A stretch of DNA of 59,387 nt from Rotaria socialis (taxonomy: Eukaryota), in assembly GCA_905331295.1 (NCBI GenBank), contig CAJNYD010000201.1, positions 62,001-121,387 of the forward strand. Reading direction: 5' to 3'. Shown one piece after another: positions 17,271-59,364 of the stretch. The position numbers and the translations under genes are program-made. Numbering within the stretch: the first letter of the stretch is position 1; every line of letters begins with the position of its first letter. The notes under the pieces were generated by a model. That model ran no database searches and was not told where the DNA came from. It saw only the letters and a list, made by a program, of their open reading frames with translations.

Positions 17271-20200
17271 CTATTTTATGTGATGCGCCTCGGATGATTT
17301 TGTTTCGAAGTAGAAGACTATTGTCGGATTTTTCCATGTTGTTGATGGTATTTTTGTATCAAAAACTCCATTCCAAGGAAATTTTAATGGAAGCTCAGTA
17401 CTATTGTTTGTTTTTATCGTTTTAAATGATTCGATTGTTACAGTTGAAAATGGACATGGGCCAAATATAGCTGTTGAACATTTATTTATGTTTTGTTTGG
17501 ACGATGAACATAATGAATGTTTATAATTTTCACAGAACTTTTCAAATTCATACTCATTCGTTTTCATTCGTTCAGCAAATTTGAATTTAAAGTCTAACAG
17601 TTCTTTTTCTGTTAAAGACGCTTTTGCGGGACATTGTTTAAGCACAATGAGTTGCTGTTTACAAGTTTTCTTAAAATCTTGTTTCATCTTTCTACTGTTT
17701 TTTGACATGTTTTTATTGTTAGAAAAACAAACTAGTGAAGTGCTTTTTCGAATTGATGTTGTTTGAGAATCAATATCATTTAGATTTAAGTTTTTACAAG
17801 TCATTTCTTCTTGATGTTTTAATATCATTAACGATCTCTTTTTTAATGAGCCGCTTATAGTACGATTATTATTCTGTTCAGCAAGATTATTGAATTCTTT
17901 TTCTATCGGATAATGCTTTCGTAAGGATAATAATAAATATGAATTTCGTAAAACTTCATTCAACATAGGGAAAATCGCTTTATTAACATCACCAGTATAT
18001 GTAAATGGTGCAATATTTAATGTTGTTTTAAAATTTTCTATTTTGTTTAACCATTGTTTGTAAGATAGGATTCCAATATTAAACCATACGCATTGCTTGA
18101 TTTTATCTTTTTTTTGTTGCTTCTCTGGACTATCTAGAGTTTGTAAATCTATCAAGAAAGAAAATATGAGAAATAAGTTGTAAAATCAATGGATACACAC
18201 AGCAATACCACTTATTTTCATACAAATACTTTCTGCATTGATTTTCTTTTGCATGAATAATATCTTGTATTTTTTCTGTCAGGTTGTTTTTATCATTGTC
18301 AGTTATTTTTCCTTTTTCTGATTTAGCTAAATTTTGAATATAATTTTCATACTTGACTTTGTTTTGGTCTGGTGTTAGTAGAAAGTCAAATTCTTTATTA
18401 GTTCCTACACATTTGATAGGACCATTCGCCTGTAAAACATTCGATTGATCAGATGCTTGCTTAAATGAGTGGATATAACTGTTTGCTATACATTGGAACT
18501 GAAATCAAAATTGATTAAACATCAATTGAAGATGGTGTTTTCTTTTTTCAATCATGTAGCTAAGTAACTTCATATGAAATCATTTTCAAATGATATCGAT
18601 TAAAAGTGAAGAGCGTAACATAAAAAAAAGGGTGGATCGAAGTGAATAGCTAGCTAGTTAAACAACGATGTTTTTTTTTTATCGAAAAATGGAAATTGGA
18701 CATCCAACTTTAAGACAAGAGAAAATATCTTACATGTTACATAAATCAACTGTTTGATCAGAACATGATGGAAAAAAAAAAGAATTTTGTACTCAATTTA
18801 TTTTATCTATGTTTATGGCAATACGTCCATGTACCACTAGACTTGATAGCTTTGTAGAGATTTTCAAATATATATACATATATCCAGTTTTCTTGCTTTT
18901 TAAAATTTGCTAGTCAACAGACGATTTGGCTGCGTTTCACTAAGATATAAAATGTAAGAAAAAATATCTTCTGTAAGAGAGAAAGTTTTATTATCGATTT
19001 ATTTCAACAGGAGAATGTAAGTAAAATACATTAGATGAATTTTAAGGCGACAAAATTTAGCCCACAAGTTACTTGAATGCTTATTAAAGATAGAAAAAAT
19101 AATATTTTCTTGCAGTTTATTAAAGACTCATATATCTTACAATGAATGATATGAATCTTGTTCAATTTAGAAAATTTTAAAAACAGCCCGTATTGAAATG
19201 CATTAAAATCTGTGATTAAGCCATAAAATTAAAGTTAAAAATGATGCGATAAATATTAATATTCAAATTTAACCTCGATTAATTATTCTCTTGATTTTAA
19301 CAATCAACTCAAGTAAATAAGTAGTTTTACATGATATGAAAAACTAATTTTCTATAATTCAAGTGAATTCGATATATTGCTTTCGTTTTGATAAATGTCA
19401 AACAAACTTACAAGTTTCAATAATAATTTATCATATTCTAAGTTAAAATGATTTTCTGATCCAAATAATTGAAAGTATGATTCTTTTTCAATTAACTTTT
19501 CTAACCATTCGATTGGTTCATAATTTTGAACTTTTACAGGAATAATGCATTTTCCTATTTGATTTGCATATTTTGCTTCTTGTTCACATAATTTATCATG
19601 AAAATAATTTTTACTTATGCAAAGAATAATACAATAAGATTTGTTTACCATTTCAAAATGTTCTTCATTGTTTCTTGATTGATTTAAATTTAACCATACA
19701 GAAAAACCTTCGTCAATAAGAAAATTAGCTAAACGTTGTGATACTATTGAATCATCTGGTGAATAACTCAACATAATAGTATAGTCAACAAATAATGTTT
19801 CAGTTGAAAATAATGATAATAAATTTGTTTTTTCTTGAGCTAATGTTTTTATCAAAGCATATTTTTGTTTAACTTCATAAACACTGTTTATCGGGCCATG
19901 TAATACAACTTTTTCATCGTTATCTAATTTAGGTAAAGTACATCTATCTATAGAATATTTATAAAAAGCATTGATCATGTCTTGATTCCAATTTTCAAAT
20001 CCATCTAAGTTTATTTTAAAAATTGATCGGTTTAAATAATTATTTATTCTTTTTTTACATTGCTTTAAATTATCTACATTTGAACATGCAAGAGTTATTT
20101 GAATAGCTAGAAAAATAGACAGAATATATTTAAATAGAATTTTTTAAACGATAAAACATAATTTGAACATAAAAAACTTACACTCTAGAAAAGTCAAATT

Positions 20201-23200
20201 AAAATTAAGAAAGAACCATAATTGTAGGAAGATAAAGATAAAGTCTTTGCTTTTTGGCACTCTATATTAGTCATCATAAAGTTTGTTAAATTTCTTGATT
20301 TGAATTAGAGACATGCACAGGACAACTTTTGCTGTCTTGTCGTGCTAGCACCCATGTCCAGGCGGGCAGCAGGACAGGGCGAAATTTGAACTTGCGTTCT
20401 ATCTCGTTCTGCCCTAGGCACGTCTCTGATTTGCATCAATTTTTATAAATGCACAAAAAGTTAAAAAAAGAAAATTAGTCCAAGATCAATGTACTAAAAT
20501 GCGAATATAGCTTCAATATTAACTTAGCTTAGCCTAGCTAATTTGATGTAGCCGATAGTGTGAAACATTTATATATATATATATACTCTCTCTCAGCTAA
20601 CGTCATGTAAACTTAGAGGAGGAGTCTTCCGTATAATGGAATATTTTATTGTTAATATCTGTAATCCAGTCATATACTTGTGTTGGTTAAATCTGAAAAG
20701 AACACATACACTGGCTACTACGATCAGTATTGTTTCTCACATTTAACTAGCGTAATCTCTCATTAGTCAATAATTGATATAATGAAGAAAAGAGTGGGAT
20801 TTTGCAAAATTTTGCCTTTAAATGTATCCTTATCATTTGTTCGAAAATGTATGTCAGTTTTACAATATTATTTTTTAAGATAAGTAATTTTCGGAAAATG
20901 TTTTGTGAAACACGATCTGAAAGGAGTGCTGAAGTATATAGGGTAGACATTTGGGCCCATCGCCCGCCCCCCCCCCTCCCACAGACCGTTACAGAGAAAT
21001 TAATGAATTCTTTTCTCTGTAACGGTCTGTGGCAGTTTCTAGAGACTCGATACATCATAGTACAGACCGTGACAGAGAAGCTTCACAGACTATCACTGAC
21101 CGTTATAGACGGATTCCAGAAAAAGAGTTTCATCGTGTTTCACATTTTAATCCCACAGGAATTGTACTAACAGCTTTTAACATCTAGTTTACATCATAAA
21201 GATTATAAACAGTCTTATTTCAAAATATATGATAATTTTTACGGTTCAGGAAAGTAATGATAATGTTTCAATTTATGAAATAATAAAATATGAGTTTATC
21301 AATACTGTTTTTATTATTCTGTATATATGTAATAATTACTATTGCAATCCTATCAATTCGATTGATCATTCAAATTGAACAGATTTCCTATAATTTGTTG
21401 GTTCTTAATATAAATTACGTAAAATCTTACTTGTTGCGGGACATAAAAAAATGTCACAACAATCTTTTCCTGTTTGTATTGTTTGAATAATATTTAAAAA
21501 TAGTTGATGTAACGTCTGCTGATCTGGTAATAAAACGAACGATACTTTTAATGAGACAACTTTTGCCAAATTAATTTGATTGATTGTTTCTTCAATCATT
21601 TCTTCTGCTAAAATTTGTTCGTGTTTACATGAGTCGGGAACTGCAAATGCAATTGTTTGTGTGGTTAAATTTGCTCGCTCACATTCCTTGATAACATAAC
21701 GAATCGATTTCGAAATATATAATTGAATTAAATCACTCAAATAGTCTTCATCGAATATTATAGTTGGTAATGACCAATTCACAAATAAAATTTTTCGGCA
21801 ATTTAAATGTCCACCAGTTGTTTCCGTAATAAATGGAATTGAACTCAATCTATTGTCTTGTTGATACGTTTGACTTGATGGTTGTTGTTCAATTATTTCA
21901 CCTGCTCGTTCAATTAAACTTTCTTTTAATCCGAATGATGTAGATGAAATAATAATAATGTCGACCTAGAATTATCATCAAAATTAACATTTCGATAAAT
22001 TTAAAACTTACGTTTTGTAAAGCGATGTCACCCATAACAATTTCAATTGAACCATTAGTTAATTTCGTTTGAGAAAAAACTAGTGGAGATGAACAAAATG
22101 ACTTTGATTGTTCTATTATTGATTTTGATACCAATGATGAATTTTTATTAGATCTTGGTATTCGATAAGATTTACTTTTGCTTTTTAATGCTAATTCACA
22201 ATAGCAACGGTTTTGTTGAGCAAGTTTTTTTATATGCAAATATAATTTTTCAGCAATATCATAATGTAATTCTTTACTTTTGAATGTACTTGTTTTCAAA
22301 TTAGATAATAAATTTAAGATAGAATTTTCTATTTTATTTTTTAAATAGTGTGGAGCATAAAATTGATTTTCTCGAATATTTAATTTTATATAATCATTAT
22401 GAAATTCTCTTGCAATATCATGTAATTGTTCGATACAAAAATTTGCAAGATATTCAAGCTGTTTTTTAAGAAAACAAAATCAATGAATATTTAAAGAAAA
22501 TAATAAATCATAAAAATATTGCTTTTTGTTTTGTTTTAGTTAATAATTAGTATAGTAGCATGGATAATGAATCTTATAAAATAAAAAGTGAATGAATCGT
22601 TCTCAACTGTTTACAAACAGTAAAATGAAAGAAATCACACATTGAATTCTGGATAATTCAAAATCTTTATAAATATATTTAACACGGAATCTATGATTAG
22701 GAAGCATTGAAAATGATGCAAATAAAATCAAGAAACAAATATTTTTATCTTGTTTTAGCAAAAGAAAAACTTCGAATGATTTCTGTATGTTAAGTAAAAA
22801 ATACTTTAACAAACGTGATGCTCATCAGTAACGTGTAAGTATCAATTGAATCGAATCTATGTTTTTGCTTAAAATATTAGATTCCTATCTAACAGGGAAG
22901 AGCTATAAATAAAACAGGGACATACTTGTTCAGATGAAATTTGGCCAAATTTATATTTTCTCAATCGATATTTATCAAATAAATTTTTGAACTTTTGAAA
23001 AACTTCATTCACAAGTTTTTGATAACCAAATATTTTAATGATATGTTTTGTTTTATTTCGATTTTTAATATATGGATTTCGTGTAACAGATATTAACATA
23101 TGATCTTGTTCATATTGATTCATATTTTCATTGAATTCTTCATCATATTGTTTTGTTGAACTAATTTCAAATTTTGATAAAATTTCATTTGTATGCAGAT

Positions 23201-25371
23201 GTATAAATTCAATAATTTGAGTTGATTTATTTGTTGAAACAAGAATATTTAGCTGTAAAATATGATTGTGAATAATATCATCAATATCAATAAGATTTTG
23301 AAAAGAATTAAATTTTTCATCATCGAAATAATAAACTTCTAAGATTTTACTATTCAATCTATTCCATTGGCATACAGTAAATAGATGAGTTTTATCATCT
23401 AAGATATTTTGAACAATACCAATTGATGTTATGTTAAATAGCCATGTTTTAACAATATTTTGATGATATATTTTCGATTTTATTGACTTGAATAAGTTTT
23501 TGACAAAATTTCGAACAACTCGATTTTGTTTTTTTCTTCCAATGAATTTTATTGTATAATCAAATACTGATTCTTCATCGTTTGAATGCACTTGTTTTAT
23601 TTCAATTTCAATTGCGAATGTTTCTTGTTTTATATAATTAATTAAATGTGAAATAAATTGAGGTTTTTTGAAAAATTCAATTTGAATTTCATCATCAATT
23701 AAGTAAGTTGTTTCACATATTGAAGTATTCGAGTTTTTCTTTGTAGATTTTTTAGAAACAATGTCCAGTTGGCGTTTATCCTGAGAAATAAAATAAATTC
23801 AATCGATGATATAGCAGAATCTGTATATAGTAGTAATAAAACAAATTTTGATCGATACTTCTTGTATGGCTTTAACCAGTCGATATATCTTTGAATTCTA
23901 TATGTGGTTGGATTTAATGATCGACTTGTTTTCAAAAAGTTCACCTTGCATCAAGTATATGGAATGAATACGAAACTCTCGCTATATATTACAACTTCAG
24001 TGAATAGTCTATGCTAAAATGTTCATCTTAATTTACCGAGATGTTAGATGGAGATTCAGCAAAAGAAAAGTGACTAATACTCATTTTGAACAATCGAAAT
24101 TCTGTATCTAATCCTCATTCTAATATAGTATGAATGCTCATGTTTTGTTCCATAATAATTGACAATGGCATTTCTTTTCTTAAATTTTTATTGTTGACGA
24201 TAAAGACAAAATGATGATGACTTCACTAATTCAGATAAATTTAAAAAACTGTTCATCTTTATTTTGAAATGCTTTTCTTTAGAGCAATAAAAACTGACCA
24301 AAAATAAACCAACTCAGACGATTAATACGACTTCTAGATGTTCCTGTAGAAAAATAAAGCAAAAACTCGGTATGATGAAACTCCATAGATAATTCAGCAA
24401 AAAAAAATGACCAAAATGCATAGCTTTTAGATGTTTTAGAAGTTACAGAAAGTATGAAAATCATCAATAAAAAACGAGATAAACTATAAAGAAAAACTGT
24501 GTTATCTTAGAACTATAAAATCTCATACTGGCATCTCATATATTTGTCTTAGTATTTGATCTTATTAACTCGTTCTTTTTTTTAAAGAATGAAATCCTGG
24601 AAATATAAGTCAAAATATCTCTAAATATGCGTCTGAAGAAAATACTGATCTTGTGAACAACTAATGACTTGTTTTAAAGTAAAGATCGAATAATGATTAA
24701 TGTTCTAAGTAGTTTAGAGCATATTTTAACCAAACTTCATATAATGAGGCGATTATGACTGTAAAAAAGCTATCATCAATATTCAGTGCCTGTTGAATTC
24801 CTTTTCAATTCAAAATACTGAATGGAAGATTATCGATAACTAGAAAACAGGAACAATGTGTCTTGATAAAAATCTCTTCTAAAATAAATTTCTAACTTTT
24901 ATTTAGTAATTCATCATTCCCAATATTTACCGCATTGAAATCTGTTCTATGAACCATAGTTGATGGAACGAATTCAGATGAAACATTGTCAACTCTAAAT
25001 AACATTAAAACATATTAAAATCGAGATAATCTTCATCGAAAATTTTCTTCCTCAATATGATTATTCTGATTTTTTTGTTGTATCTCCATCTTCAATTGCA
25101 TTAATTTTGTTTTAAATCTACTTGTTGCCCCAATAGTCGATTTTTCTATCGATCCATCTGCGTTGATTTCCAAAATGAGTTGCGTTATATCAGCATCGGT
25201 TAGTTTCATTAGAGATAACCCGTCTATGTTCCTATCTAACACAATAAGAAAAGAGATTTACCATTAATGTGTAGTGCTATAGAAATGACTACCTTTGAAT
25301 ATTTTCGCCTGCTTTTTAAAACCATTTGCTTTCAACCAATCAGTAACCTTCTTCACTGTCCAATTTGCCAT
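17271..25371 (-). CDS. SAM - KH-like repeats - Macro - TIR multidomain protein, copy A. Predicted exons 25371-25293, 25235-25052(?), 24994-24931, 23780-22926, 22458-22012, 21965-21431, 20106-19412, 18498-18201, 18148-17271
   Basis: SAM: MANWTVKKVTDWLKANGFKKQAKIFKDRNIDGLSLMKLTDADITQL. Macro: IEIVMGDIALQNVDIII..LIERAG..ETTGGHLNCRKILFV..TIAFAV. TIR_2: IMLSYSPDD..LANFLIDEGFSVWL..IILCISKNYFHDKLCEQEAKYA..IIPVKV..WL. Splice phases are consistent, except that the exon 2 donor reads GG instead of GT. The gene is colinear with the plus-strand paralogue. Confidence 0.78.
20306..20428. mobile_element. hAT-type MITE (123 bp) in an intron of TIR gene A
   Basis: TIR TAGAGACATGC versus reverse complement of the right end CAGAGACGTGC. 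Flanking 8-bp target-site duplication atttgaat / atttgcat (7/8 match). Confidence 0.72.
20979..21032. repeat. Perfect 21-bp inverted repeat (hairpin) with adjacent direct copies of the arm
   Basis: CCACAGACCGTTACAGAGAAA, a 12-nt spacer, then TTTCTCTGTAACGGTCTGTGG. It is preceded by a C-run, and related units ACAGACCGTGACAGAGAA (about 21062) and GACCGTTATAGA (about 21098) follow. Confidence 0.85.
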
Positions 25372-28264
25372 GAACTGCAAAATTAAGCATAGAATACGGT
25401 CACTGTCTTCAAAAAAAAAGACTATTGAACACTTTCAATGAATGAATGCTCTACAAAAAGTTCTTCACTTTGTTTTCAGCTCATATTAAGTCTATAAGCA
25501 TTTTTGACTGAGACTAGTACTTTTTTTTATGCAACCTTCGATCCAGTTTCGGATATATTTGGAAAATCTTAGATTAGAGCTTTGTTGCGAACTTTTACTC
25601 ATTGATAGAACAAATAATCAATGCAATATCCTTAACTTTTTCAATCAAAAATGATAGTATATTTCGTCACGATATTGAACGTTTAAAAACTAATTATTTG
25701 CCAGAAAGCAATGAGAAAAAAAAGAGTTTACTTGCATATTTATTATATTAATGTCATAGAAAAAATCGATGGCTTGGTTTTTTTGTGAAATATCGTTATT
25801 TTACTTATTTTATAAGATTTCACGAAATATTTCAAAATATAGATTATGAAACAACTGTTTGTTCCCCTGTGAACGATTCATAGGAGTTACTAGAAATCAT
25901 CCGTTGGGTAATTCTTTATTGTTTATCGATTCTCGCAATTTCATGTGTGAACGTTTTGTTTAGAATAAATCTAGATTAAATCAAAAATTGTATTGCGTGA
26001 CATAATTTTTTTTAATTTAGCGTTCAGGTATGATTTTTTTCTTTTGCAAACTTCCAATTTATGTTATACTAGTCTGTTTAGAATTCAGTATATCTCAGGA
26101 CTATTTAACTTACGTAATCAATCTGTATTGACTGCCGTCACTCGCATTCAGTGATTTCACACGAAGGATAAATTTCTACAGTGACATTCAATTTTCGCCC
26201 TGTCTTTTCTCGATAGTTGTTCACTGTCTAATGCCATTTTCTCAAAGAAAAGTAACAACTCAAGTACATAGAGAAAGAAAAGAAAAAAATCTCTGAGGCA
26301 AAATTCATTTTCTTTAATTGTCTTAGCACAAGGAATAGTAACTGTCGTATAACTTTGGTAAGTTTTGACTTTGTAATAATAATTAATAACATAACAGTTG
26401 TCTATAATAAAAAAAAGTATATCCCTCTAATAAACACTGCCATCGTTTTTATGGCTTTTGAAGATTTTTCTTTTTTCTGGAACGTTAAGACAAATCATAT
26501 TTGTTTCAACGTAAATAGTTTCAAGATCTAACTTCATGATTATGCAATCATCGTTTATCAGTGTTATTTTTGGATAATTATAGAAAGATTTGTTTTTTTT
26601 TGCTATTTTCTATTGTCCAATAGAAATAATTAATGGCGACAAAAGAGAATATTTACGATAGTAAGTTTCATCAGTTTTTTTTTCTTACTCATAAGATAAT
26701 ACTCGATTATATAAGTTTCAATACGATGATAGATATTTCGAAAATAAATCAAGAATATTCATTCTTATTACCGACTGAAATCCGATCACAAATATTACTT
26801 CTGAAAAAGAATAATCGGTATTCTCTAGGAACAGCTTTCCTCTATTCTTGTTTTCTGCTTCGACAGGACTTTCAAATTTCCTTTTCTTTTTTTTCTATTT
26901 AACAAAATTTACTATTACCAGACACTAGATTCTATTCGTATCGCGATTTCTCCAGTGTGAGATGGCTCTAAGTATGTTTTAACAAAAACAAAATCGTCGA
27001 TTATTAATGCGGTAAAATTGATTGATGTTAACCAAATTCATTTTTTCATTAATTGAAGTTTAAAAGAAAAATTAGGAAAAGGCTGGCATACCAACAATAT
27101 CGATAGAAAAATAATAATCTTTTCGACGGTTGTAATAGTTTGATTTCTTTTTAATATAAAAAGAATTGTATGTTGTTTTTTCGAACTAAAAATTAATGTA
27201 AAATTCGGACTAATGTTGGGAAAACGTTTTGATTGTCGATAATATTTATTTGGTAACAGGTAGCACTTCCAGATGAGTATTGCATGATCAGAATGCATCG
27301 CAAGACACAGCCAAGAATATCATGTCTAGATTCTAGAGTATAAATTTCGACAAATTTCATTTACACAAAAATCTAAAGGACTAACGTTACTTTTCTTTCT
27401 ATTTCACATTTTTACCAAACTAATATTTGAACAGAAAGAAAATTAAAAATAAATAATTTTCTCACGTAGAATAATAGTAAAAAATAAAATACTTCTACAA
27501 TGATGAAAGGGTTGCCATAGAAAACGGAATTCATGATCACGTTAAACTCAAAGTTTGAAAAAGTGAAGTCGTGACTTGAACAATCGTATGAATCGAAGCA
27601 ATCAAGTTATAATGGTATTTTTTAGCATTACTGCATACTGAGAATTTCTTGTAATAAAGAGAATGTAAAATGTTGAACTTTATGGGCCTATATCATCGTT
27701 CAATCGAAAAGAAAGTTCAGGTCGATGTAATATTCAACAATTAAGCAATGAATTACAACATTTTTTTAAAGACTTCCAGATGGATTATTGTTGACAAAAA
27801 AATATTTATTAATTATAAATAGGTACTTTATCGAAATATTTATATTTATGTAAAGACAATCGAAACGACTTTTTCGTCGGTCTACTTTGTTGCTATCGTT
27901 TTCTTTCGCAAAGTCTTCACGAGAATTTTCATTCTTGACTTTCTCACGGCCAGGATCACAAAACATGAGTATTTAGAGCATTATTAACTACTAGATTTCT
28001 ATATTACATTTCTCTATAATTGGAAGGAAACTGGTGAACTGATATAATCTGAAATGTTACTCATGATTTTTTTCCAAACCAACTAGAGTTATAATACACT
28101 CTGGAGAGTACTACTATCTATTCAATTCATAATAATAATTGACTTATCATGAAGATTAGTTGACAAGTTTTAAAACTAGGTGGCATATTTGTCGCACTAC
28201 TATTTAAGTTATCCCTTTTATCTAGACTATGTAATATGCAATCACAATCTATTTAGACACATCA

Positions 28265-31200
28265 ATGGCTAATTGGACAGTCGATCAAGTTGGAAACTGG
28301 CTAAGAACCAATAATTTAGAGAGATATATCGAAAACTTCAAAAGTAAGAAATACTCTCATTGATTTCTTGGTCATGATTTAGTTATACATATGTACAATA
28401 GATGAAGATATCGATGGTATTGCTCTGATCGGTTTAAATGAAAATGATATTTTAAAATTATTATCTACAATCGATGAAGATGGAACAATAAAGAACTCTA
28501 CAATGAGAACACAGCGTAAATTTAAGGCAGCATTAGAACAGTATAGAAAGTTTGTAACACAGGAGAGAAAGAAACTTGGGAGAAGACGGTAATTCTAATC
28601 GTCATTTCTTGTCGTGAAATTTTCTTTCTTTTTTAGTTCAATAGAAAATAAAGAGCTTGATGCAAGTATACACGATGGTACAAAAAAGTAAATAAGAAAA
28701 GAAAAAGGAATATTCGGTAATTCTCTAAAAATCTTTGATTTTTATTACTCAGTGTATTGATGAAACCTTCAAGAAATATATTTCATACAATCGATAATGT
28801 AGGAACATACTCAAGATTATATACTGTTGAACCAATGAATATTAGTATGAAATTCTTCACCAGTGAATCAATTAGTTCATACTTAACAAAATATTATCTA
28901 AAAAAGTATAACGTTAGATGTTATATACCAATGCAACATCAATTTCATACACAAGTTTCACTATCCATTAAATTATCGGGAATCAAAGAGAATGTCAAAA
29001 GTGTTCACCATGATCTGCAATCATTATTTGAAACAATTAAAACAAAAATTTTCAATGATGAAGATAAAGATAAAAAAAGTAAAAGAAAAACGGAAATTAT
29101 TTTCATCACTATTTGTCTCTGGCTTGCGAAAATAAATTTTCATTTGTTTTTAGTTGTGCGGTGGTCTCGATATATCTATTCAGATTCTATTCTTACAGTT
29201 TTACAAAAAATCTTTGTCGATAAGAAAAAATTAACAGTCTGGGAAAAAACAAGTATATTATCCGGATTCTACATCGTTCATTATACTAGTGGCCAACATA
29301 TGTTTAGTGTTTCAGAAGAATTTATTAATCAAACACTTAATAATGAGATATCTTATGTTAAAGATATTGTTATAGAGAATATGGAAAGTATTCAACCGAA
29401 ATTTCGAAAAGAATTAAAAGAATTAATTAATGAAAAAAAACAACATCAACTACAAAATCCAACAATGTCTATTATTTATTGTCAATATCCTTCTCAAACG
29501 GATATGAAAATAAGCTTTTTTGGATTAAGAAATCATGTTGACCTTGCTAAAAAGCAGATTAAACTGTTGATTAACAAACATCGAATGAGAACAATATGGA
29601 TTGGACTTGATTCAAAACAAGTATGAAAAAGATTAGTTAGCCCGTTACTTAAAGGTTTCTTATACATATTTCGATATTCTAGATAAGGTAGTTATATTTT
29701 TAAAGTTAACCAACTGATTCTGTTCGAATTTTTTCGATTTCCAAATAATATACAACTGATATATTTGAAATTTGCGCCACAATTAGAGCATCTCAAATGT
29801 GTAATGAATGACTCGGAAAAAAAACGTTTTTTGTACAAATTTTCTGGCATTTTCTCGTAGAATCCGTAACTACATGTTAAACTACATCAGATAAACCCCA
29901 AGGAAATAGTTCCTGTTTCTAGTTGTGTTTGATGGTATTTGAAATGTTTTTGAAAATGCCTCGAACTTTGTTTCAAACGTCTTGTTTGCTTTTCTTTCAT
30001 AAGACAAATCTAAAATCAGCATATTAGCATCCATCATTTCATCAATTTAGATACAAAATTTACATAAACGAAAACTATCAATAGCATCGTTAAAAAGTAT
30101 TCCTAAATATCTATGATTGCAAGTTTACCGGATTGGATTATATTCTCAATGAGCAGAAAGTCGAGTAATTTAATAATATTCGTCTGACTATTGATACGAT
30201 TGAAATCAAAATTTTTACATAAAATATTTCGATTCAATGATAGAACAGTTTTATTTCTTGATTATTTTCTCATCAGATGATCACATAATTACCAACCATA
30301 GTTCGCAAATTGAAGATAAGATTTGTGTATATGATTCAAATCAAAATAGCTTCAGTATTTTTTCATTTTTAATATGAATTTGAAACTCATTAACGTTATC
30401 ATTAGAGATACTGATGGTCACTGCCCTTTGGCCAAATGTTTTTAAAATAAGATCCGACAAAGAATGTTCTAAGAGGTCACGATTTTCTGCCATTTGATGC
30501 GACGCTTTGAAATGAAATTTTTCTTGTGAAATATAAACATCGCAAGAATTACTCCCACTAAAACTTTGTACATAAAAAATAATGTTTTCTAACAGACGCA
30601 ACTACATCATCTATTGATTTCGATTCTGTGTTTGACCAATGATTTCATCTTTACTTTATTCATCCGATCGATTGATCGTTAGCAACAAGCTTAGATTTTA
30701 CAGATAAGGTTGTGAGCATATTCTATTGAAGATAATTCTTACACTATTCAGAATTTTTCATTTACTTTGAAAAATATTTTCAGAAATTTGAAGAGAATTC
30801 TCAACAAATCTGTTAGATATAAAAATTGTTTTAATTATACATCAACTAATCTTTGGGTTTTAGCGTGACTTACTAGTAGATAACTATATGCATGAATTAA
30901 AAAATGTAGAATTCAATTATAAAGATGATAATCTTAAAATTAATATTCGTGAAAATATAATTACTGCTCCACAATATTTAATTATGAAAATAAAACAATT
31001 AGTTCAATCAATGATTTCTCCAACAATTACTCTGATTTATCGACACATTAAAAATTCTTGTACATTTACAGAAAAAGATCATTCGAAATTAAAAAATCTT
31101 GCTGAAAGTTATTTTTGTGAAATTGATAAAATCAATATAGAAACAAAGAAAGAACTTCTATTATTACCTAAAGGACAGGCAAAATCAACGTCAAAATTTA

Positions 31201-34200
31201 TTATTAAAGAATCAAGCCAATTCTATTCTTCCTTGTCAATATGGAGAAAACTCGCTGTATCAAATCATACAATAGAGATTCATAAATCATATTATTTTAA
31301 AGTTAAGTGAATAAATCAATTATTTTTATTTTATTATTATTTTACGATTTTCTAGGTTGATGTTACAATTATATCAACCGTAGTAGACGCCATTAAAGAA
31401 AAAATTGACCCAAAATATGGAAATGGTTATTTTGAATCTGATACTGGTAAAAGAGTTTTATTTATTGATTGGTCACCATGCATTTTACAAAAAGACAATC
31501 ATCAGATAAATGAATCAATAAAAAATTTCATTTCTACATCAATTCAACAAATAGATAGACTCTGTACAAATGTTGTCGAAACAATTGGATTCGCAACAAC
31601 AGATTGGGAAAACTATAACAATAGAAAACAATTAATAGAAAATATTCTGCATGAAATGATAAAGCAACTTTCAATTCGCGACTTTTCTAATCTTTCATGG
31701 AAAATAGTATTTCTATTTAATGATGAACAAAATGATCTTTTTAATGAATTTTCACAAGCTATTTTAGCATTACAAACAGATAGAGATAATTATGAACAAT
31801 TTTTTTATCCAATATCAAGTACGTCACAATTGAAATTAAGAAAATAAAGTTAAAGGAAATATAGCGTATAAAACAAAGATCTGATCTCACCGTAGATATT
31901 TTGTTCTAACATTAAAATAAAACTTAATCAAATGTCAAAAGAAAACATTAAAAAGTATCATAGTTTCATTTCCTTGGCTCCTATTGAATATTGTGAACAG
32001 ATTTCGATGATGAAACTGACAAAAAATAACTTTTTTCAAACTTAAACATATTTCATATTAGCCACACAGTAATTATGCATCTCACTATGACATATGTCAT
32101 ACTCTATGAAGGAGAAGTGATGATATTAAGAAGTTTTTTTCGGTCTTTGATTGACACTTGCTTCATAATTAAGAGGATGTATTAAGTTTTCACATGTATT
32201 TTTCAACAGTATTCAGATTTCTTTTCTACTATTAGAAGCATTCGAGCGTAAATTCTCGTATGTATTTTAGCTAGTAACATATCTATGAAAATTAAAAACA
32301 ATACTAATGTAACTTAAAAAATCTTGTTTAGTCAGTCGAGAGTCATGTTCGTGCTGTCCTAAAAAGTTTCCCAGATCTCTTGAAGTCACATGTGCTTCGT
32401 AGAACGAAAAGAAAACACGAAGATGTTATTATGTAGGAAAAGAAAAGACATCTTTCTTATATCCCCAATAGGACAAAAAACGTATTGAGACAATCGATAA
32501 ATAACTAAGTGTGGATTCATTTTCATAACTCTCACATCAGATAAGGAGATTCGGGTTAAAACATGCGAGTTTCACATGCCAATCCGTAATAAATGTTCTC
32601 TGAGCATATTGTGAAAGAAATTAGAAAATATTAAAATAAAAGAATTCATCAGTAGTCGAATGCAGAAGCACAAATAAGTTTTAATTCAAATTATTCAATA
32701 TTCTCACCAACGTCAAATAAAAAACATCAAACTAGTAGCAGCGGATCACTAAGTAGATAAGGAAATAATTGAGCAAGATGGTGACGATATTCATTTAAAA
32801 ATTAAGATACTTGCACTGAAAATAGAAGACAGATGCGCGGTATATTTAGTGAAGGAATTGAGAAAAGTTGGGGCCTGTCACCTTTCTCAAAATTTTCCGA
32901 TTTCAAACGTCATATCTCATTGTTTTTCCTGTTGTCTCGAACCCCAACATCGAATACCTCAGTATTTTCGAGACAATTCTGATTGTTTTATGGAATGGAG
33001 CAAACAAGACTTGTCGGGAGTCGGAACCACCTTGCAGGGCTCTGTTAATATCAAATAAAATCAAACACTATTATGTTTAAGTTTGATATTACGGACTCTT
33101 CATTTCTTTAATGGATTTAACTTGAATTAAATTCAAATGAAAATGTTTAAGATCACTATAACACTCTATTTTAAACTAGAAACTGATTACTTAGCCATTG
33201 AACATAACAAACTTTCTTTTATATAGCAAACAACCATTGATTGGAACTTAAAAACCTATCTTACTTCGTTTTCTCTTATCTAATTTTAGCTGCTTCCATT
33301 ATATTAAAAACGTCAAGCAATTCAAATATTTCCAAGTGTAAAAGATCAATCAATGATTATATGAACAAACATGTACTTACAAAAATCAAATTGAACTATC
33401 CGTTCTATGCTGAGATATGGAATAAAGACATGATTAATTCATATTACAAATATTGCCTTGAAAATTTTGTTTTGCCACAGATTATTCAAATCGATTTACA
33501 AAACGATCAACAGCAATCTTTAGATCTAATAGGGCCAATTTGTGCTGTTAATCAAGCTGTACAAAAATATGAGTTGATGTCAGATATTGAACGGCAACGT
33601 ATATTAATTTATACTGAAATATCAGAATCGATCGAACAATGCCCTATAAATCCAACTTCAGTATTAAACACAACAACTGATTCTTCCAATATTTTATTAA
33701 GTTGTTGTTTTGCTGATAATATCCTGTCACGCCACCTTACCAATCGTTTGATTGAGGAAGGCTATCAAGTATCACTTGACTATTCTGATAAGACATCGTC
33801 AAGTATCGTCTCAAAAATCAAGAAAACAGATATAATTGTTGTTTGCTTTAGTTCTAATTATTCAGAAAATGCTAATTGTACGAAAGCACTACATGCAATA
33901 AAATCGTCCGAAAAGAAATATATACCGATTATGTTAACGCGAAGTTCATTGAATCAAGAAGAGAATTGGCTTCAAGTAATGAACACCGAAGAGTTATATT
34001 ATGAATCATTTAATGAAGAAATAAAATTCAAGTTAAACGAAGATTTAGCCTTAGACTACGATAAATTATTGATTGAATTAGTAAGTTTTCTTTTTGACGT
34101 ACAGAAGAATGAGTTTCAATCGATTCATTCGTCTACCGTTTATTATGACAGATTCACTTTCAAGAAAGCATTTAGTTAAAGTACAAACTATACATTAAAT

Positions 34201-37200
34201 GCAATATCTTATTTTATTTTTGCTAAATATTTGTTTTCAGGAACTATGGAATTATTTTTGCGTATTAAAAATTGTACTAAATTAATAGCCACGTTAACTA
34301 AAACTTTGTTGAGTTTTTGTAAAATCAAGAATATTTCAATTGATGTCGGCACTTCATCTGCTTTAACATTTGAGAATACATCGACAGTAAAAGGAAGTTT
34401 AGTATTTTGTTGAAAATCTCTTGATAGGAATTCTCTGAAAATTTGTATGCCCATTAAAATCATTCATTAGGTTGTCATAAAAGAAATCAGCTTCATAGCT
34501 TTGTAGATTGATGTACTCATCATTGTCAAATCGAGAAATGCAGCGAGATCTTTCCGAATCTTAACTTATCTCTTTTGAATCATCTAACACATACTAAATT
34601 TTCTATCAACAATCTATATATATATACATACATATATATATAATGTTCAGTGTGTGTCTGTGTCGGGTCAAAGGTTAAAGGTCAAAGATATTTAGAATTT
34701 TCTAGACCTTTCTGGAACCATATGAAGTCAAGTAGACTTCTAGAAAATTCCATGACTTTCTGGAATGTTCTAAAATATCCTAGAATTTTCTCTGAACTAC
34801 GACACAATCAAGTGAAACGATGAAGGTTAAACTGAGTCGTGTTATGTTACCAGAAAATTTTAGAAAGGCGTAAACTTTTACCGAATATCCTAGGATCACC
34901 TAAAATTATCCTATCCTGACTGCACGGACTCTATCGGCAATTAACAAAGAGAATGAACATGGAGATAATTGCGATTATTCATTAGACACTAACGAAGATT
35001 TCATGAGCAATATGATACTATGAAATGAAATATTCTTTACTTTATGCATGTATATTTATAATCAGACTCAAATATTATACTTTAAAAGAAGAGAACTGGA
35101 TTCTTTTTTGAAATCTAAGTTGGACCTGGAGGAAACTAAATTTACGAACCAAAACGTGGTAGAATTCGAGTTCAGTCTGATAGGCTCTATCGTGCATACT
35201 GCACGGGACCTCGCTAGTATTCATAAAATACTAAGTTCTCAATGTTCTCGAATTCTTCACATTTTCAAACGCTGCAGTAAACTAAAAAAGATTTTTATAT
35301 TCATAGCTACATTATGCAAAACCTTGTGCAGTTGGTGCAATTTACATAATATCTAATAAAAACATTTTAAACAATGAGGAGCAAAAAGAAAAACATGATC
35401 AGTCAAATATAGTCACAACAATTACGCCAGAACAAAGTCAAGAACAAGAACAAATTTATCAAAAACGTATTGAACAAATTTTAGAGCGAGATCAAATTTC
35501 ACCAGATGAAATAGCAAACTTAATGCATTGTTTAAACATGATTCTTGAAGATTGTGCAAACGGAAAATGTTCAACTTCGTTAAACGAACAAGAACTAGGA
35601 CAATCTATTAGAAAATCTAGACGCATAACAACGGAAAACGAAGAAAAAATGCAACTTTATCAGAATGATTTTGAACAGAAGCAAGACAATGATCAAAATA
35701 AGCATGAAGAAAGTGAGTAGCACTTGTTCGCACGAATAATTTGATGAAATCATATTTTCTGCCAAGTATTTACTATTTAGGAGTTTATTGAAATCTTGAA
35801 ACATATTAGAATCTATTGTATAATCCGATAGAAACAACTAAGCTTTCAAAATAAAGTCATTAAGAAAAAAAGAGAACAATAATGTGTACGGGCAATTTAT
35901 CATAGTAAGGAGATTTCCAAAATAGTTGTTTTCACTAATTTTACATCTAGACAGAATTAGAATGCCTGTAAAATTAGATGTTGCAATGAACTCAAGGACA
36001 AACTGCTTTTTAATGATACTATACGTCCAGCAAAATATTGAATTCTGAGCACTTCTTTATTGCTAATAAAACATTTCCTAGTAAAATTCTACATTCGACT
36101 TCATGCTGTTCAATTTTTAGAAGTCTACGAGACTAGACTATATTTAAATGATCAATTAGTCGCATTAGAAAATTTTCGCGTAGTAATGCGAGTTGTATTA
36201 GCATTTCAATGTCCAACATGATATTCATGCAAAAAATAACAAGAAGGAATTATACTTTGCCGTTTTGTTCATAGATAAACTTGATGATAACTGGAATGTT
36301 TTAAAAAACTCAACCAGAACAGATACTTCTGTTCAGAAATATTCATACATGAAATGAAAGGCAATGTTTTACTTGTGATTCTCAGAACTCTTAAGAAACA
36401 AGTATCTGTTCTGTTTAAAACTTTCAAAAACATTAAACAGATTAACACCAGAGCAAACCAATTTAGAAGAGGTTCTTTTAATGTTTTTCTTTTCAGGTGT
36501 GACAAAGAATGTTTCAACTTATTTCAGTGCTTTTCTATCAATTGTTCAACATTGGTTAGAAAAAGCATCAAATGGTTCTGTCACTAAAGGCAATTTACCA
36601 CCGTTTAGTTTAACTGGCGATTTTAATGATGCTATATTTCGAACATCTTCGAAAGACAAAACTCCATGGTGGGTAACAAGTGCGAGCCAATATGATTTTA
36701 ATTGTTCATCGCTTGAGTTTCCCTTAGTTTCACGGTTAATGACTAGTTCGTTTTGTGATGGCGATGAAGCACATAGTTATTTCCGGAATTTGATCAATAG
36801 AGACATTCAATTTCTAGAATATAAAGAAAAGCAACATCAAATGAAGTCTAAGCGAGAACAAAAAAATCAAAATAGTATATTTAGTAGTGGTCCACATCAG
36901 TCGCATTTCAACACAAACATTAAAAAAGGTACTATTGTCTGGGATATTATTGAAGATAAAGAATTTCTACAAGAATATGAAAAAAGAAAATCGGGAAAGC
37001 TAATAAGAAATCCAAATAGACTCTCGATTGGTTGGAACCGCTTGTTGGATCGATCAGTACAATTAGTAGCAGACATTAAAGATGGTAAAATTAACATGGC
37101 ATCGAACGAGGTACAAGGCAAAATTGGCAAAGCACTCAAAACAATGAAAGAAATCAGAAAACTTAATGTGTTAGATGATGTAAATAATGAACTTTGGAGA

Positions 37201-37299
37201 AAAAAACGTTTTCCTCTTTGGCGACAACAATTTATTGAAATGAAAATATCCAATACGATTCAATGGCAAGAATTCTGTGCAGCACAAGAAAATCAGTAA
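28265..37299 (+). CDS. SAM - KH-like repeats - degenerate Macro - pseudo-TIR multidomain protein, copy B. Predicted exons 28265-28343, 28402-28588, 28637-28687, 28753-29078, 29154-29620, 30864-31301, 31356-31818, 33290-34080, 35307-35712, 36497-37299
   Basis: SAM: MANWTVDQVGNWLRTNNLERYIENFKNEDIDGIALIGLNENDILKL. Blocks shared with copy A include KINIREN..APQYL, RVLFIDWS, TIGFA, WNKDMINSYYKYC and PPFSLTGDFNDAIF. TIR: ILLSCCFADNILSRHLTNRLIEEGYQVSLD..IVVCFSSNYSENANCTKAL..YIPIML..WL. All junctions are GT-AG with consistent phases. Confidence 0.82.
34613..35217 (+). mobile_element. Non-autonomous Helitron in an intron of TIR gene B
   Basis: 5' A|TC followed by a (TA)n tract; internal TTCTAGA/TTCTGGA repeats; subterminal hairpin CGTGCA-TAC-TGCACG (35191-35205); and a 3' CTAG|T end. 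It is inserted between A and T with no TSD. Confidence 0.8.
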
Positions 37300-37923: not shown

Positions 37924-40900
37924 ATGGATGTTTCACTTCAAAACCATCAGCCTGTCATTCGTCAACTACGTAAAATTGAATCGAATAGAGATGTAATAGC
38001 ATTGTTTAATGAAGTTATCTTAATTTTAAATAAAACAATACACAATCAAACTGATGGTTTTAAGATATTATCTACAATATGCTTTGAAATGGCAGGATTT
38101 ATTACACTTAAACCATTTAATAATCCGGAAATAATGAATCATGAATTTTTTATTATATTGAAACAAACGTTTCAAACATTATTAACTAAATTAACATTTA
38201 TTTCATTAGGAAAACAGGACGAACAATGTATTGATGGAATTAGTTTATTAATAGCCAATCTATGTTTATATAAAAACACAATATCAACATGTTTCTATAC
38301 TGATAATAACGAAGAACTAAATCCAATAAATGAAGAAAAATTTAGTTTTATATCATATGAAAAAATATTTTTCACAGACTCATTCCTTAAAAGATTTGTA
38401 AGAATTTTAGAAGATGATATAGCTGTACATAGTTATGACAAATATCATATTAAATATAAAATTGTTGATCGTTTACTTCGTCTTTGTATAAAGCTAAATG
38501 ATATTGACAAGAAAGTAATTATCGATTCTATTGTAAAATGTGTTGAATCAAAAACTTACATGAATTTATACCAAACCGTTGATCTTGGTCAACCAATATT
38601 AAGTCCGAAGGAATCATTCTTTTTGTTTCAATGCCCAAAATTTATTCGACTATGTAGTTTCGAACGACAAGATGAAATATCTAACAAATTATCAAAATCA
38701 ATAATAAAATATCATGGGAATATTTTTGAAAAAAATCTGTCAAATATTTTAATAGGCGAATTCGTCTTAAATTCAGCGATAGCTTCTTATGTCGAATTAT
38801 TAAATCATATTGCTTTAACATCAACAACAAGAGAGTTATTTATCAAAAGTAAGTTCAAATATATTTTCATAATGGATTCGTAGAAAAAGTATCACAGCAT
38901 AGCCTTTTCAACGTTCAGTGAACTTTTCAAATTTTTCAATGTATCATTACTTGTATACAAAATATTAGCGTTGAATCAGACGAAAATCATCGTTTAGAAA
39001 AATGAACAATATCTATTGCTACACAAGTTCTTTGAAATAATTTTAAAAGACTAACTATTTGTAGACTCATTAATTTCCAATTGTTGGTACGTGTTCTTAT
39101 TTTTATTAGACTTAGAGTATCAATAATCAAAGTGTTCTGTAGAAATTTTTGCCTATTACACATAGTTTCGAATAAGATAAACATACAGAAGATATTTTTT
39201 CTATTAACTTTCATAAAATAACCTACAATTTTTAAGACAATTAAGCATTTATTCAAGAGACGATCTTGAGTACTGCATGATATATAGACTTGCAGAAGAT
39301 CAGAATTCACTCACTACATAAGTTTCTTTTTAAAATGTTCCCATGTCTAATATACAAATATTTGTTCAGTTTCTTCTTAACATCTATTCGAATTTTGAAC
39401 ACTATTTTGCTTGTCATGAAATAAATCTATAATCATTATTCAGGTATATTCTTATCTGCATTATATAGTATTCTATTTATTTTTTTAGAATTTGATACAG
39501 ATAAAACTGTGGTAGATCAAATGATTGAAATATTAAAAGGATTATCATCAATAGAAAGTATTTATAGAAACACTAAATTATTCCATGCCGATGTTGCTCT
39601 TATGTCATATTCAATAGCTCTTTTGTATAACTTGACATTTGAGAGAAAAATTTTTTATGAACTAAGAACTCGAAATGTAAAAGATATTTGTAAAGAATTA
39701 TACAAAGCAAAAGATAAAACAATACAATTCGCATCTCGAACATTAGCTGTAATTTTAAACCAAGAAGATATTGATTCAATCGATAGTCCCTCAAAAGTAG
39801 CTAATTCTTATTTATATTTTATTGAAAATACAATTGACAATTCAACAGTTACCCATCATGGAATTAAATTAGATGGTGTCCTAATCAATCTTGAAGGTAT
39901 AATTTTCTTATTTTCAAAAATCTTTTCCTTTGCTGTTATTATTAAAATGAGCTTATGAAAACCGTGAAATATAAAATACTATATAACGATAATATTATTG
40001 TTATTTCTTTCGGGTAATGGTCATATATTGATATCATAAAAAAACAATCAAATAGACTTATTTAAACGACATTTTGTTAAAAAATAATATAAAAGCAAAT
40101 AAGCACAAGGCTACTTCCGTGAATAAAAAATAAGCTGAGTGGTAAATACTTCCTAAAAATAAAGAAATAAAATATTAGTAATTACTATGTATAGTATCTA
40201 GGGGCGAAAGAATCTTCCCTTAAAATATATTACCTTTGAGACATAATATTTCTTTAGATAGACCGATTAGAGACATTAGAAAAAAAACTTCAAAGAATTT
40301 ATATCCAAACACAACTTACTTCTTGGTGTATGGCCATTGTAGTAAATTATTCAATTAAATATCATAATCTTAGTTAAAATACGCAACTACTCTATCTGAA
40401 TCTATCAGACCTTCTGTCGAAATATAAGTAGAAGAGAAAATGACAATTAGAACATTTTGACTACGAACCAACATATCTTTAAAGCCTCGAAGCGAAAGAG
40501 AGAGAGAGAAAGAGAGAAAGAGAGATCTTCTCGATCTATTTTTGCATGCATAATCGAACTCTCAATTAGGTACAGCACAGATCAATAAAAAATACGTTGT
40601 CTCATGGAGAAACTCTTCCCCTACATTTCTACATATATCTCATTCAGAAATCAAACTCAGAAATTCAATAGTTTCCGACTGATTTACTCTCATTCCGTAC
40701 TAGATTCGTAAATTTTTTTAATTCAAAAATTGGTTTCAGCCAGATTCTCACATGTTGCGAAGAATTTGATTAGAATCGGTATAATTCTAAAAAGAAAACA
40801 TATCAAGATTAGTCTATTCAGGATTTTTCGGTTTTCAGTAAGTTCCAGTTAGAGATGTAAAATTTATTTCAAAAGAAATTGATCATTTGATGAAGATCTC

Positions 40901-41838
40901 TCATTGTGAAAATTTAACAATTATGGTGAAGTCGATTCCACCTTAACAAATTTTTGATATGAATTATAGCTAAGAATTTGAACACGTAATATTTTAATTC
41001 AATTTTAGTCATTATTCAAAGCGATGTGATCAAAGATGAAATTATTAATCATGACAATGGTATATTACTATTAGCACGATGTGCATATGAACCAAATCTA
41101 GATAATGAAACAATTCAACATCCAGCTCTTCGAATTATTGATGCAGTTTCATTCGGAAAAGATTCAGTTGTGAAACAGATAAAAGAAAACGATGCTCTCA
41201 TGAATCATATTAGAGAGTTATGTGATACAAATGATAAATATCAAGTAGTCACAGCTAAACGTATTCTATGGAAAGTAGATGAAGAATTAAAATTTGTGTC
41301 AACACAAGAACAACAAAAACAAAACGAAATAAAATTAATAAACGTTTTCGATGAAAAAAAAGCTATTTATCAGTATATACGAGGTGATCATTATTTTAGT
41401 TTAGAAGAGCATAAGAATTCAGGAAAATTTAACCTGATGATTAGTTATTGCCAAGAAGATAAAGATATTTGTCTTAAAATTTATAATCGTTTAACAACAT
41501 CAGATTGTTATAAAGTTGCATTCGATAAAGATAATTTACACACTGCAAATCCAAAAGCCATGGCAAAAACAGTTGAAAATTCATCGATTATTCTTATTTG
41601 TTTTTCAACAAAGTATCAAAATTCATATGCAAGTCGATTAGAAGCTGAATATACTATGAAACGAAATCGGCCTATTATTCCAATAAAAATCGATCATCAA
41701 TACAATTCAAGAGGCTGGTTAAAAGAAATTATTGACAAAGAAAAATATATTGACTTTACAAAATATGAGTTCAATACTTCATTTACGCAATTAATTGATC
41801 AAATCAATGAGCTACGTGAAAATCTTCGTAAATTATAG
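37924..41838 (+). CDS. Helical-repeat (ARM-like) + C-terminal TIR_2 protein; exons 37924-38848, 39489-39896, 41009-41838
   Basis: ARM-like segments (YSIALLYNLTF..KTIQFASRTLAVIL; GILLLARCA..ALRIIDAVSF..TAKRILW). TIR: FNLMISYCQEDKDICLKIYNRL..VAFDK..MAKTVENSSIILICFSTKYQNSYASRLEAEY..IIPIKI..GWL. Two phase-1 GT-AG introns join the three ORFs. Confidence 0.88.
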
Positions 41839-59271: not shown

Positions 59272-59364
59272 ACTACCAATAAGTTTCTTAGTTATCTTCT
59301 TTTTTTTTCAATTTCAAAACGTTTAATTCGTCTATTTCTTTATAATTCATATACACAATCAACA

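What the first reader, a model, noticed from the sequence alone, without database searches (positions are those of the whole stretch)
17271..41838. Candidate undescribed NAD+/ADP-ribose immune locus: a head-to-head pair of SAM-KH-Macro-TIR genes plus an ARM-TIR gene
Seen: about a dozen separate ORFs splice into only three genes, and all three carry TIR_2-type domains. Two are divergently transcribed paralogues (both start MANWTV..V..WL; ATGs 2.9 kb apart), and the third starts about 620 bp after the stop of the second. Known: TIR_2-type domains are NADases that make ADPR-derived signals (SARM1, plant TNLs, bacterial Thoeris ThsB), Macro domains bind ADPR (type II Thoeris ThsA, PARP9/14/15), and SAM domains oligomerise SARM1. 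Inference: the locus encodes a cytosolic sensing and signalling module in which ADPR-type signals are both produced (TIR) and read (Macro). I do not know of a described protein with this architecture.
Basis: partly seen in the sequence, partly recalled or inferred. Interest (0 to 1): 0.9.

Follow-up and report, generated by a model that had tools for sequence, protein, structure and literature searches.

The report
Rotifer PARP14-derived TIR pair, one dead
Two back-to-back rotifer genes carry the front end of an antiviral PARP14-type protein joined to a TIR immune domain in place of the PARP enzyme; one copy lacks the catalytic residue, a third TIR gene stays next to them in related rotifers, and together they likely form an untested paired NAD-cutting immune switch.

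Summary
The three genes are real and lie in a bdelloid rotifer (98-100% identical to Rotaria socialis models). B (+, 1336 aa) is SAM-KH-Macro-KH-TIR-tail; C (+, 720 aa) is a helical-repeat TIR protein. A (-) has the same layout, but its SAM exons join only through a GG donor; 0 of 20 public models of it carry SAM. Macro and TIR folds are recovered (Z 19.9, 15.3); KH only weakly (Z 7.4). The KH-Macro-KH scaffold is collinear with bdelloid macro-PARPs (27% over 661 columns), with TIR where WWE-ART sits. 'Made and read' is only half supported: the Macro lost its glycine-rich phosphate loop (0 of 38 family rows vs 9 of 11 PARP-type), and B's clade lacks the TIR glutamate (0 of 9), while A (13 of 20 A-type rows) and C (4 of 4 orthologues) keep it. 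Order A-B-C recurs in three Rotaria species and Adineta steineri. Best reading: a paired sensor/scaffold with a dead partner and NAD-cleaving output from A and/or C; no expression or activity shown. Not found in nine literature searches; earlier notes of this scan describe the same family.

The parts
17271..25371 (-). Gene A (A-type), 9 exons: 25371-25293, 25235-25052, 24994-24931, 23780-22926, 22458-22012, 21965-21431, 20106-19412, 18498-18201, 18148-17271; 1344 aa only if intron 2 is spliced
   Evidence: 1252 identities to P0001 (1260 aa, lacks SAM)
25052..25371 (-). A SAM exons 1-2, intact frame, 61-71% identical to SAM of Rotaria/Adineta orthologues
   Evidence: orthologues pass Pfam SAM
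24995..25051 (-). A intron 2 with GG in place of the GT donor; same position and phase (2) as B's GT intron 2
22054..23780 (-). A tandem KH-like units (four upstream units and first half of a split unit, read from secondary structure); no GxxG loop
   Evidence: only the first unit was tested by fold search
21471..22053 (-). A Macro domain (PARP9/14/15 type): adenine Asp kept, loop-2 GxG deleted
19412..19783 (-). A TIR_2 domain; catalytic Glu codon 19579-19577 present
17271..18498 (-). A C-terminal tail of no known family, shared with B; not an ART remnant
   Evidence: (HHalign 0.1%)
25372..28264 (.). Divergent spacer of 2.9 kb; no ORF of note, only short AT-rich repeats
28265..37299 (+). Gene B (B-type), 10 exons: 28265-28343, 28402-28588, 28637-28687, 28753-29078, 29154-29620, 30864-31301, 31356-31818, 33290-34080, 35307-35712, 36497-37299; 1336 aa
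   Evidence: 1335 of 1336 identical to P0030
28265..28588 (+). B SAM domain
   Evidence: SAM_2 E 3e-8, above cut-off
31266..31778 (+). B degenerate Macro: GD motif, part of the core and loop-2 GxG lost
33685..34080 (+). B pseudo-catalytic TIR; Ala codon 33886-33888 at the Glu position
37924..41838 (+). Gene C, 3 exons: 37924-38848, 39489-39896, 41009-41838; 720 aa, likely ARM-like helical repeats plus TIR
   Evidence: 718 of 720 to P0062
41437..41796 (+). C TIR_2 domain; catalytic Glu codon 41641-41643 present

Best explanation
A and B are ancient paralogues whose KH-Macro-KH scaffold is shared with PARP14-like macro-PARPs but ends in a TIR domain instead of WWE-ART, and they likely act as a paired intracellular sensor in which B, lacking the catalytic glutamate, would be the scaffold or regulator and the NAD+-cleaving output would come from A and/or the linked gene C. 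Shown: architecture, collinearity with bdelloid macro-PARPs, the A-type/B-type split, loss of the Glu in B's clade, loss of the Macro phosphate loop, conserved A-B-C order. Inferred: the KH/Macro front end recognises nucleic acid or a pathogen factor aimed at macro-PARPs (a decoy rather than an ADP-ribose reader); SAM and TIR-TIR contacts assemble the TIRs; Glu-bearing TIRs make cADPR or deplete NAD+; the divergent spacer co-regulates A and B. In this species A is probably made without SAM, so B would supply the only SAM.
For: Scaffold: R. sordida A orthologue vs bdelloid PARP P0189, 27% over 661 columns, E 1e-42; TIR begins at the column where WWE begins; of 45 of the 150 listed profile hits scanned, 19 carry TIR, 12 PARP, none both; model shows beta-alpha-beta / Macro / beta-alpha, then one more KH with a long helix, the PARP9/14 layout in PMC10450202 (passages). 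Tree: 38 TIR-family rows on one side of a 100* branch, split into A-type (22) and B-type (16) (quick tree). Glu: 0 of 9 in B's subclade, 13 of 20 A-type, 4 of 4 C orthologues. Order A-B-C by accession series and contig length in R. socialis, R. magnacalcarata, R. sordida, A. steineri. Two more A-type/B-type contig sharings in R. socialis (51,974 and 200,372 nt). A Rotaria sordida TIR makes cADPR and depletes NAD+, Glu-dependently (bioRxiv 10.64898/2026.04.20.719644, section 8; which protein is unknown to me).
Against: No expression, induction, binding or enzyme data. The executor role of A is not universal: A. steineri A has Ile and the P0015/20/25/154 group Thr at the Glu position, so one inferred pair has no Glu on either side; 4 of 4 examined B-type rows outside B's subclade keep Glu. 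A-type cluster P0163 shared no contig length with the two other B-type R. socialis clusters listed. R. magnacalcarata models of C lack the TIR exon. A's TIR lacks the usual Asp/Gly of the BB loop and the Trp before the Cys (motif recalled). KH units lack GxxG and score only Z 7.4. Linkage could be inherited block duplication without functional coupling; orientation in other species was not seen.
Confidence: 0.45

Rival explanations
1. Non-enzymatic adaptors: A and B are SAM/TIR scaffolds (MyD88/TLR-like TIR-TIR signalling) whose Glu is dispensable; C, if anything, is the only enzyme or is merely a neighbour.
For: Glu lost repeatedly in both types (7 of 20 A-type rows, 9 of 9 in B's subclade) while genes stay intact and linked; in A. 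steineri only C keeps Glu; nearest TIR folds include Hydra TRR-2, IL-1RAcPb and MyD88, tied with SARM1/TIR-1.
Against: Glu kept in A of four Rotaria species and A. vaga and in 4 of 4 C orthologues; it replaces another NAD-consuming module at the same place.
Confidence: 0.25
2. One reading: TIRs make an ADPR-type signal that the Macro of A or B binds, as in type II Thoeris.
For: Macro fold is solid (Z 19.9); adenine Asp kept in 22 of 22 A-type rows; Thoeris Macro binds His-ADPR (bioRxiv 10.1101/2024.01.03.573942, passages); an altered pocket might take a cyclic or modified ligand.
Against: Loop-2 GxG absent in 38 of 38 family rows, present in 9 of 11 PARP-type relatives; loop 1 shortened against PARP14/15; B's Macro has lost more; no effector domain for the Macro to switch other than the TIR.
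Confidence: 0.12
3. The same NAD-consuming module serves stress or genome maintenance (desiccation, DNA damage, RNA damage) rather than pathogen defence.
For: PARP14 also acts in replication stress and DNA repair (PMC13224862, abstract and passages); immunity here rests only on domain analogy; PMC11258130 has no mention of TIR, PARP or NAD.
Against: Multi-copy family with recurrent catalytic loss and 27-40% identity between paralogues resembles conflict genes.
Confidence: 0.12
4. The locus is decaying: A is becoming a pseudogene after losing a splice donor and B is a dead duplicate.
For: GG donor in A; TIR-less C models in R. magnacalcarata; B dead in both ligand domains.
Against: All frames are open over 1336-1344 and 720 codons; B orthologues are 58-75% identical per domain across Rotaria and Adineta; A's SAM shows no excess change (13:8, 9:11, 11:4, 8:7 vs 92:49, 71:51, 103:66, 83:65 for the rest).
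Confidence: 0.06

Closest known systems
Macro-PARPs PARP14/PARP9 and bdelloid KH-Macro-KH-WWE-PARP proteins (P0189, P0220, P0271)
   Same: Tandem type I KH-like units, Macro inserted in a split KH, one further KH with a long helix; sequence collinearity over 661 columns.
   Different: WWE-ART replaced by TIR plus an unknown tail; N-terminal SAM; one Macro, without loop-2 GxG.
SARM1 / C. elegans TIR-1 (ARM-SAM-SAM-TIR NADase)
   Same: SAM plus TIR_2-type TIR in A/B; helical repeats plus Glu-bearing TIR in C.
   Different: One SAM, 750 aa away from the TIR; C has no SAM; the SARM1 parts are spread over different genes; no orthology shown.
Plant paired TIR-NLRs RPS4/RRS1 (recalled; TIR heterodimer 4c6t is a row)
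   Same: Head-to-head paralogues, asymmetric TIR catalytic site, possible integrated decoy.
   Different: No NB-ARC or LRR; both partners carry the same domains; some pairs lack Glu on both sides.
Type II Thoeris (TIR ThsB + TM-Macro ThsA, His-ADPR)
   Same: TIR and Macro in one system.
   Different: Macro is PARP14-derived and has lost the phosphate loop; fused in one chain; no transmembrane effector; eukaryotic spliced genes.
Invertebrate ecTIR-DC proteins (Gerdol et al. 2017, not seen; cited through PMC6321704 passages)
   Same: Cytosolic invertebrate TIR proteins of untested function; C probably belongs to this broad class.
   Different: I saw no KH-Macro-TIR family among what I could read; family assignment of C was not tested.

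Membership tests
Macro-PARP (PARP14/9/15 clade) | Macro domain of PARP9/14/15 type | tested here: met
   Profile hits PARP15 MD2 E 9.8e-5, PARP14 MD3 E 1e-3; PARP9 MD2 Z 19.9, rmsd 3.0, 171 aligned
Macro-PARP (PARP14/9/15 clade) | Tandem type I KH domains with a split KH around the Macro | tested here: inconclusive
   First unit Z 7.4, 23 of 50 rows name KH; no Foldseek hit at E 0.001; split read from secondary structure only; collinear with bdelloid PARPs
Macro-PARP (PARP14/9/15 clade) | C-terminal ART (PARP catalytic) domain | tested here: not met
   No PARP Pfam hit in 21 members; tail vs ART HHalign probability 0.1%
ADP-ribose-reading Macro | Adenine-binding Asp (GD motif) | tested here: met
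   A and 22 of 22 A-type rows; absent in B
ADP-ribose-reading Macro | Gly-rich loop 2 holding the diphosphate | tested here: not met
   0 of 38 family rows vs 9 of 11 PARP-type
ADP-ribose-reading Macro | Measured ADP-ribose binding | not testable with these tools
   needs ITC or co-structure
TIR NADase | TIR fold | tested here: met
   Pfam TIR_2 above cut-off in A, B, C; Z 13-15 to TIRs
TIR NADase | Catalytic Glu on helix C in A and C | tested here: met
   Aligned to the Roq1 Glu
TIR NADase | Catalytic Glu on helix C in B | tested here: not met
   Ala; 0 of 9 in B's subclade
TIR NADase | NAD+ cleavage | not testable with these tools
   needs an assay
SARM1 family | ARM, two SAMs and TIR in one chain | tested here: not met
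   A/B have one SAM and no ARM; C has no SAM
Paired NLRs (RPS4/RRS1 type) | Divergent gene pair kept together | tested here: met
   Divergent in the window; adjacent models in five other species (orientation not seen there)
Paired NLRs (RPS4/RRS1 type) | NB-ARC/NACHT and LRR | tested here: not met
   No such Pfam hit in 21 members
Paired NLRs (RPS4/RRS1 type) | Partners form a complex | not tested
Type II Thoeris | Separate transmembrane-Macro effector | tested here: not met
   Macro is internal to a soluble KH scaffold

The most novel reading that the evidence does not exclude
An animal counterpart of plant paired immune receptors built from PARP14 parts: a head-to-head sensor/executor pair in which a pseudo-Macro/KH decoy detects pathogen factors aimed at macro-PARPs, a dead-TIR partner supplies the SAM, and a linked ARM-like TIR completes a SARM1-like NADase spread over three genes.
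Probability: 0.2. Interest if true: 0.85.

Novelty: new variant of a known kind. Interest (0 to 1): 0.62.

Why it matters
It shows one NAD-consuming effector (ART) exchanged for another (TIR) on the antiviral PARP14 chassis in an animal, and a paired live/dead TIR arrangement otherwise familiar from plants. Bdelloid innate immunity is almost unstudied at the level of native genes, and rotifer TIRs were just shown to make cADPR, so the three TIRs and two Macros give a small, directly testable set.

Tried and rejected
Complex prediction of A-TIR with B-TIR: tool not available, no verdict. Pfam Macro: no hit in the family. Foldseek on the KH exon: nothing at E 0.001. Tail as ART remnant, suggested by a MAFFT overlap: rejected (HHalign 0.1%); Atlas gave no usable hit for the tail and only leads of 0.78-0.82 to Macro/PARP14 clusters for the scaffold. 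AU test of one clade did not run (script error) and the tree is the quick one with a midpoint root, so direction PARP to TIR is inferred from the wider spread of PARP14, not tested. Fused B+C models (P0111, P0116, P0032, P0033) are taken as mis-joins that show adjacency, not as real fusions. B and C orthologues from A. vaga and A. ricciae were not among the 10 and 8 hits; these searches also missed the A. steineri C, so absence is not shown. Spacer repeats: chance-level. Nothing on GG donors in bdelloids in the listing. The ADP-ribosylglycohydrolase gene 8.4 kb away was not counted as part of the locus: two other genes intervene and synteny could not be checked.

Full report
Source. The window is AT-rich (GC 0.24-0.37) with short GT-AG introns. 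An exon of gene A is 99% identical to a Rotaria socialis model, and all named hits among the 29 are bdelloid rotifers.

Gene models. From the sequence I built three genes. B (+, 28265-37299, 10 exons, 9 of 9 introns GT-AG) is 1336 aa, 1335 identical to P0030; C (+, 37924-41838, 3 exons) is 720 aa, 718 identical to P0062. A (-, 25371-17271, 9 exons) reads 1344 aa without a stop only if the 57-nt intron 2 opens with GG. That site matches B's intron 2 in position and phase, and 7 of A's 8 introns share phase at equivalent places with B, the last in a poorly aligned part. Unspliced, the SAM frame ends at 93 aa. Of 20 R. socialis and R. magnacalcarata models of A, none has SAM, whereas orthologues from R. 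sordida, Rotaria sp. Silwood1/2, Adineta steineri and A. vaga, and a close A. ricciae relative, do. The SAM exons are 61-71% identical to those orthologues and show no excess change in a small relative-rate count, so a recent detachment and a working GG donor both remain open. RNA data did not decide it.

Domains. TIR_2 passes the Pfam cut-off in all three genes; 19 of 21 family members match TIR_2 and 16 of 21 SAM. Pfam does not see the Macro, but family profiles hit PARP15 MD2 and PARP14 MD3. An AlphaFold2 model of the R. sordida A orthologue P0055 (970 aa, pLDDT 74.6, pTM 0.47) matches macroH2A and PARP9/14/15 macrodomains at E 3e-7 to 8e-7; VIA gives PARP9 MD2 Z 19.9 (rmsd 3.0, 171 aligned, residues 521-716) and TIRs Z 13-15.3. 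A model of A's exon 4 (pLDDT 82.2) has no Foldseek hit at E 0.001; its first unit scores Z 7.4 to hnRNP K and N4BP1 KH, with 23 of 50 rows naming KH, a modest result. Neither A nor B has a GxxG loop in residues 110-830. C's helical part is only weakly ARM-like. The shared C-terminal tail has no family and is not an ART remnant.

Origin. A profile of eight TIR-less family pieces found 446 proteins at E 0.001 among 1.84 billion. I scanned 45 of the 150 listed: 19 with TIR, 12 with PARP, 7 with Macro but neither, 7 with no hit; none had both TIR and PARP. The ten looked up were all bdelloid. P0008 aligns with the R. socialis KH-Macro-WWE-PARP P0189 over 661 columns at 27%, E 1e-42, and the TIR starts where WWE starts. 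The model's order (beta-alpha-beta, Macro, beta-alpha, a further KH with a long helix) is the split-KH layout described for PARP9/14 in PMC10450202 (passages). In a quick tree of the scaffold, the 38 TIR-family rows lie on one side of a 100* branch from 12 PARP-type rows and split into A-type (22 rows, 93) and B-type (16 rows, 100*) (midpoint root, no AU test). A and B are 27-40% identical per domain.

Active sites. The Macro loop-2 GxG is in 0 of 38 family rows and 9 of 11 PARP-type rows; the adenine Asp is in 22 of 22 A-type rows and 3 of 16 B-type rows, where the alignment is unsure. PMC10221186 (passages) ties loop 1 and loop 2 residues to catalysis and notes that single substitutions often leave reading intact; that the loop holds the diphosphate is my own knowledge. 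A whole-loop deletion makes ADPR reading unlikely, not impossible. The TIR Glu, placed by alignment to Roq1, is present in A and C and is Ala in B; 0 of 9 rows in B's subclade, 4 of 4 other B-type rows examined, 13 of 20 A-type rows and 4 of 4 C orthologues have it. BioRxiv 10.64898/2026.04.20.719644 (part 1 of 6, section 8 and passages; supplements not seen) states the Glu is essential and that a R. sordida TIR makes cADPR and depletes NAD+.

Linkage. Accession series and contig lengths put A, B, C in order in R. socialis (CAF3480718/731/761), R. magnacalcarata (CAF1259090/107/126), R. sordida (CAF0985040/021/005) and A. steineri (CAF1104875/894/911; C orthologue 58% identical). Silwood1 and Silwood2 have adjacent A and B plus chimeric B/C models. 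Two more A-type/B-type pairs share a contig length in R. socialis: P0025 with P0304 (51,974) and P0026 with P0324 (200,372); the first has no Glu on either side, the second has it on the A side. A-type P0163 matched neither B-type cluster listed. Orientation outside the window was not seen.

Mechanism. I commit at 0.45 to a paired sensor: KH/pseudo-Macro front ends sense nucleic acid or act as decoys for factors aimed at macro-PARPs, SAM and TIR contacts assemble the TIRs, B is the dead partner, and A and/or C cleave NAD+. All of these steps are inferred. Rivals: non-enzymatic adaptors (0.25), make-and-read (0.12), stress role (0.12), decay (0.06).

Literature. Nine searches (listings and abstract starts only, except the papers named) showed no description of a SAM-KH-Macro-TIR protein or of this locus. 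PMC13224862 (passages) has no 'TIR'; PMC11258130 (passages) has no TIR, PARP or NAD; PMC6321704 (passages) describes ecTIR-DC proteins; Gerdol 2017 was not available. Public records call these proteins only 'SAM' or 'TIR domain-containing'. Earlier notes of this scan (some searches were empty) report the same family, pairing and losses in other genomes; one is marked as partly fallen. They were read after my analysis and are not independent support. New here are the conserved third gene C and A's detached SAM.

Verdict. Interest 0.62.

Noticed in passing
window 7683-8897 (-): ADP-ribosylglycohydrolase gene (Pfam E 1e-58), 8.4 kb from A's stop with two genes between; a further ADP-ribose gene near the locus, linkage elsewhere unknown.
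   Followed up: partly
window 5077-6760 (+): Multicopper oxidase with long exons; possibly horizontally acquired, not tested.
   Followed up: no
window 12699-13753 (-) and 15688-17054 (+): Frizzled-domain gene, and an FG-GAP repeat gene convergent with A whose stop is 216 nt from A's stop.
   Followed up: no
window 20976-21035: 29-nt palindrome (90%) with further partial copies in A intron 6, like a small transposon remnant.
   Followed up: partly
window 34114-34601: Exact X1 contigs lie in B intron 8 just behind the TIR exon; R. sordida A models P0055/P0058 also end after the TIR, so short tail-less isoforms are possible; X1 may be DNA.
   Followed up: no
P0084, P0085, P0091 (R. magnacalcarata gene C): Models end after exon 2 and lack the TIR exon: annotation gap or real loss.
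   Followed up: no
P0097 (R. sordida): Gene C model fused to an arginine ART-TPR protein, suggesting an ART gene next to C in that species; the window has an RTE1-like gene there (42884 on).
   Followed up: no
P0271, P0275, P0266, P0224: Related macro-PARPs carry varied N-termini (LIM, PDZ, CCCH finger, USP-type ARM), so this scaffold shuffles domains often.
   Followed up: no
window 58474-59307 (-): 277-codon frame that looks like a retrotransposon gag remnant by eye; no Pfam hit at E 0.01.
   Followed up: no
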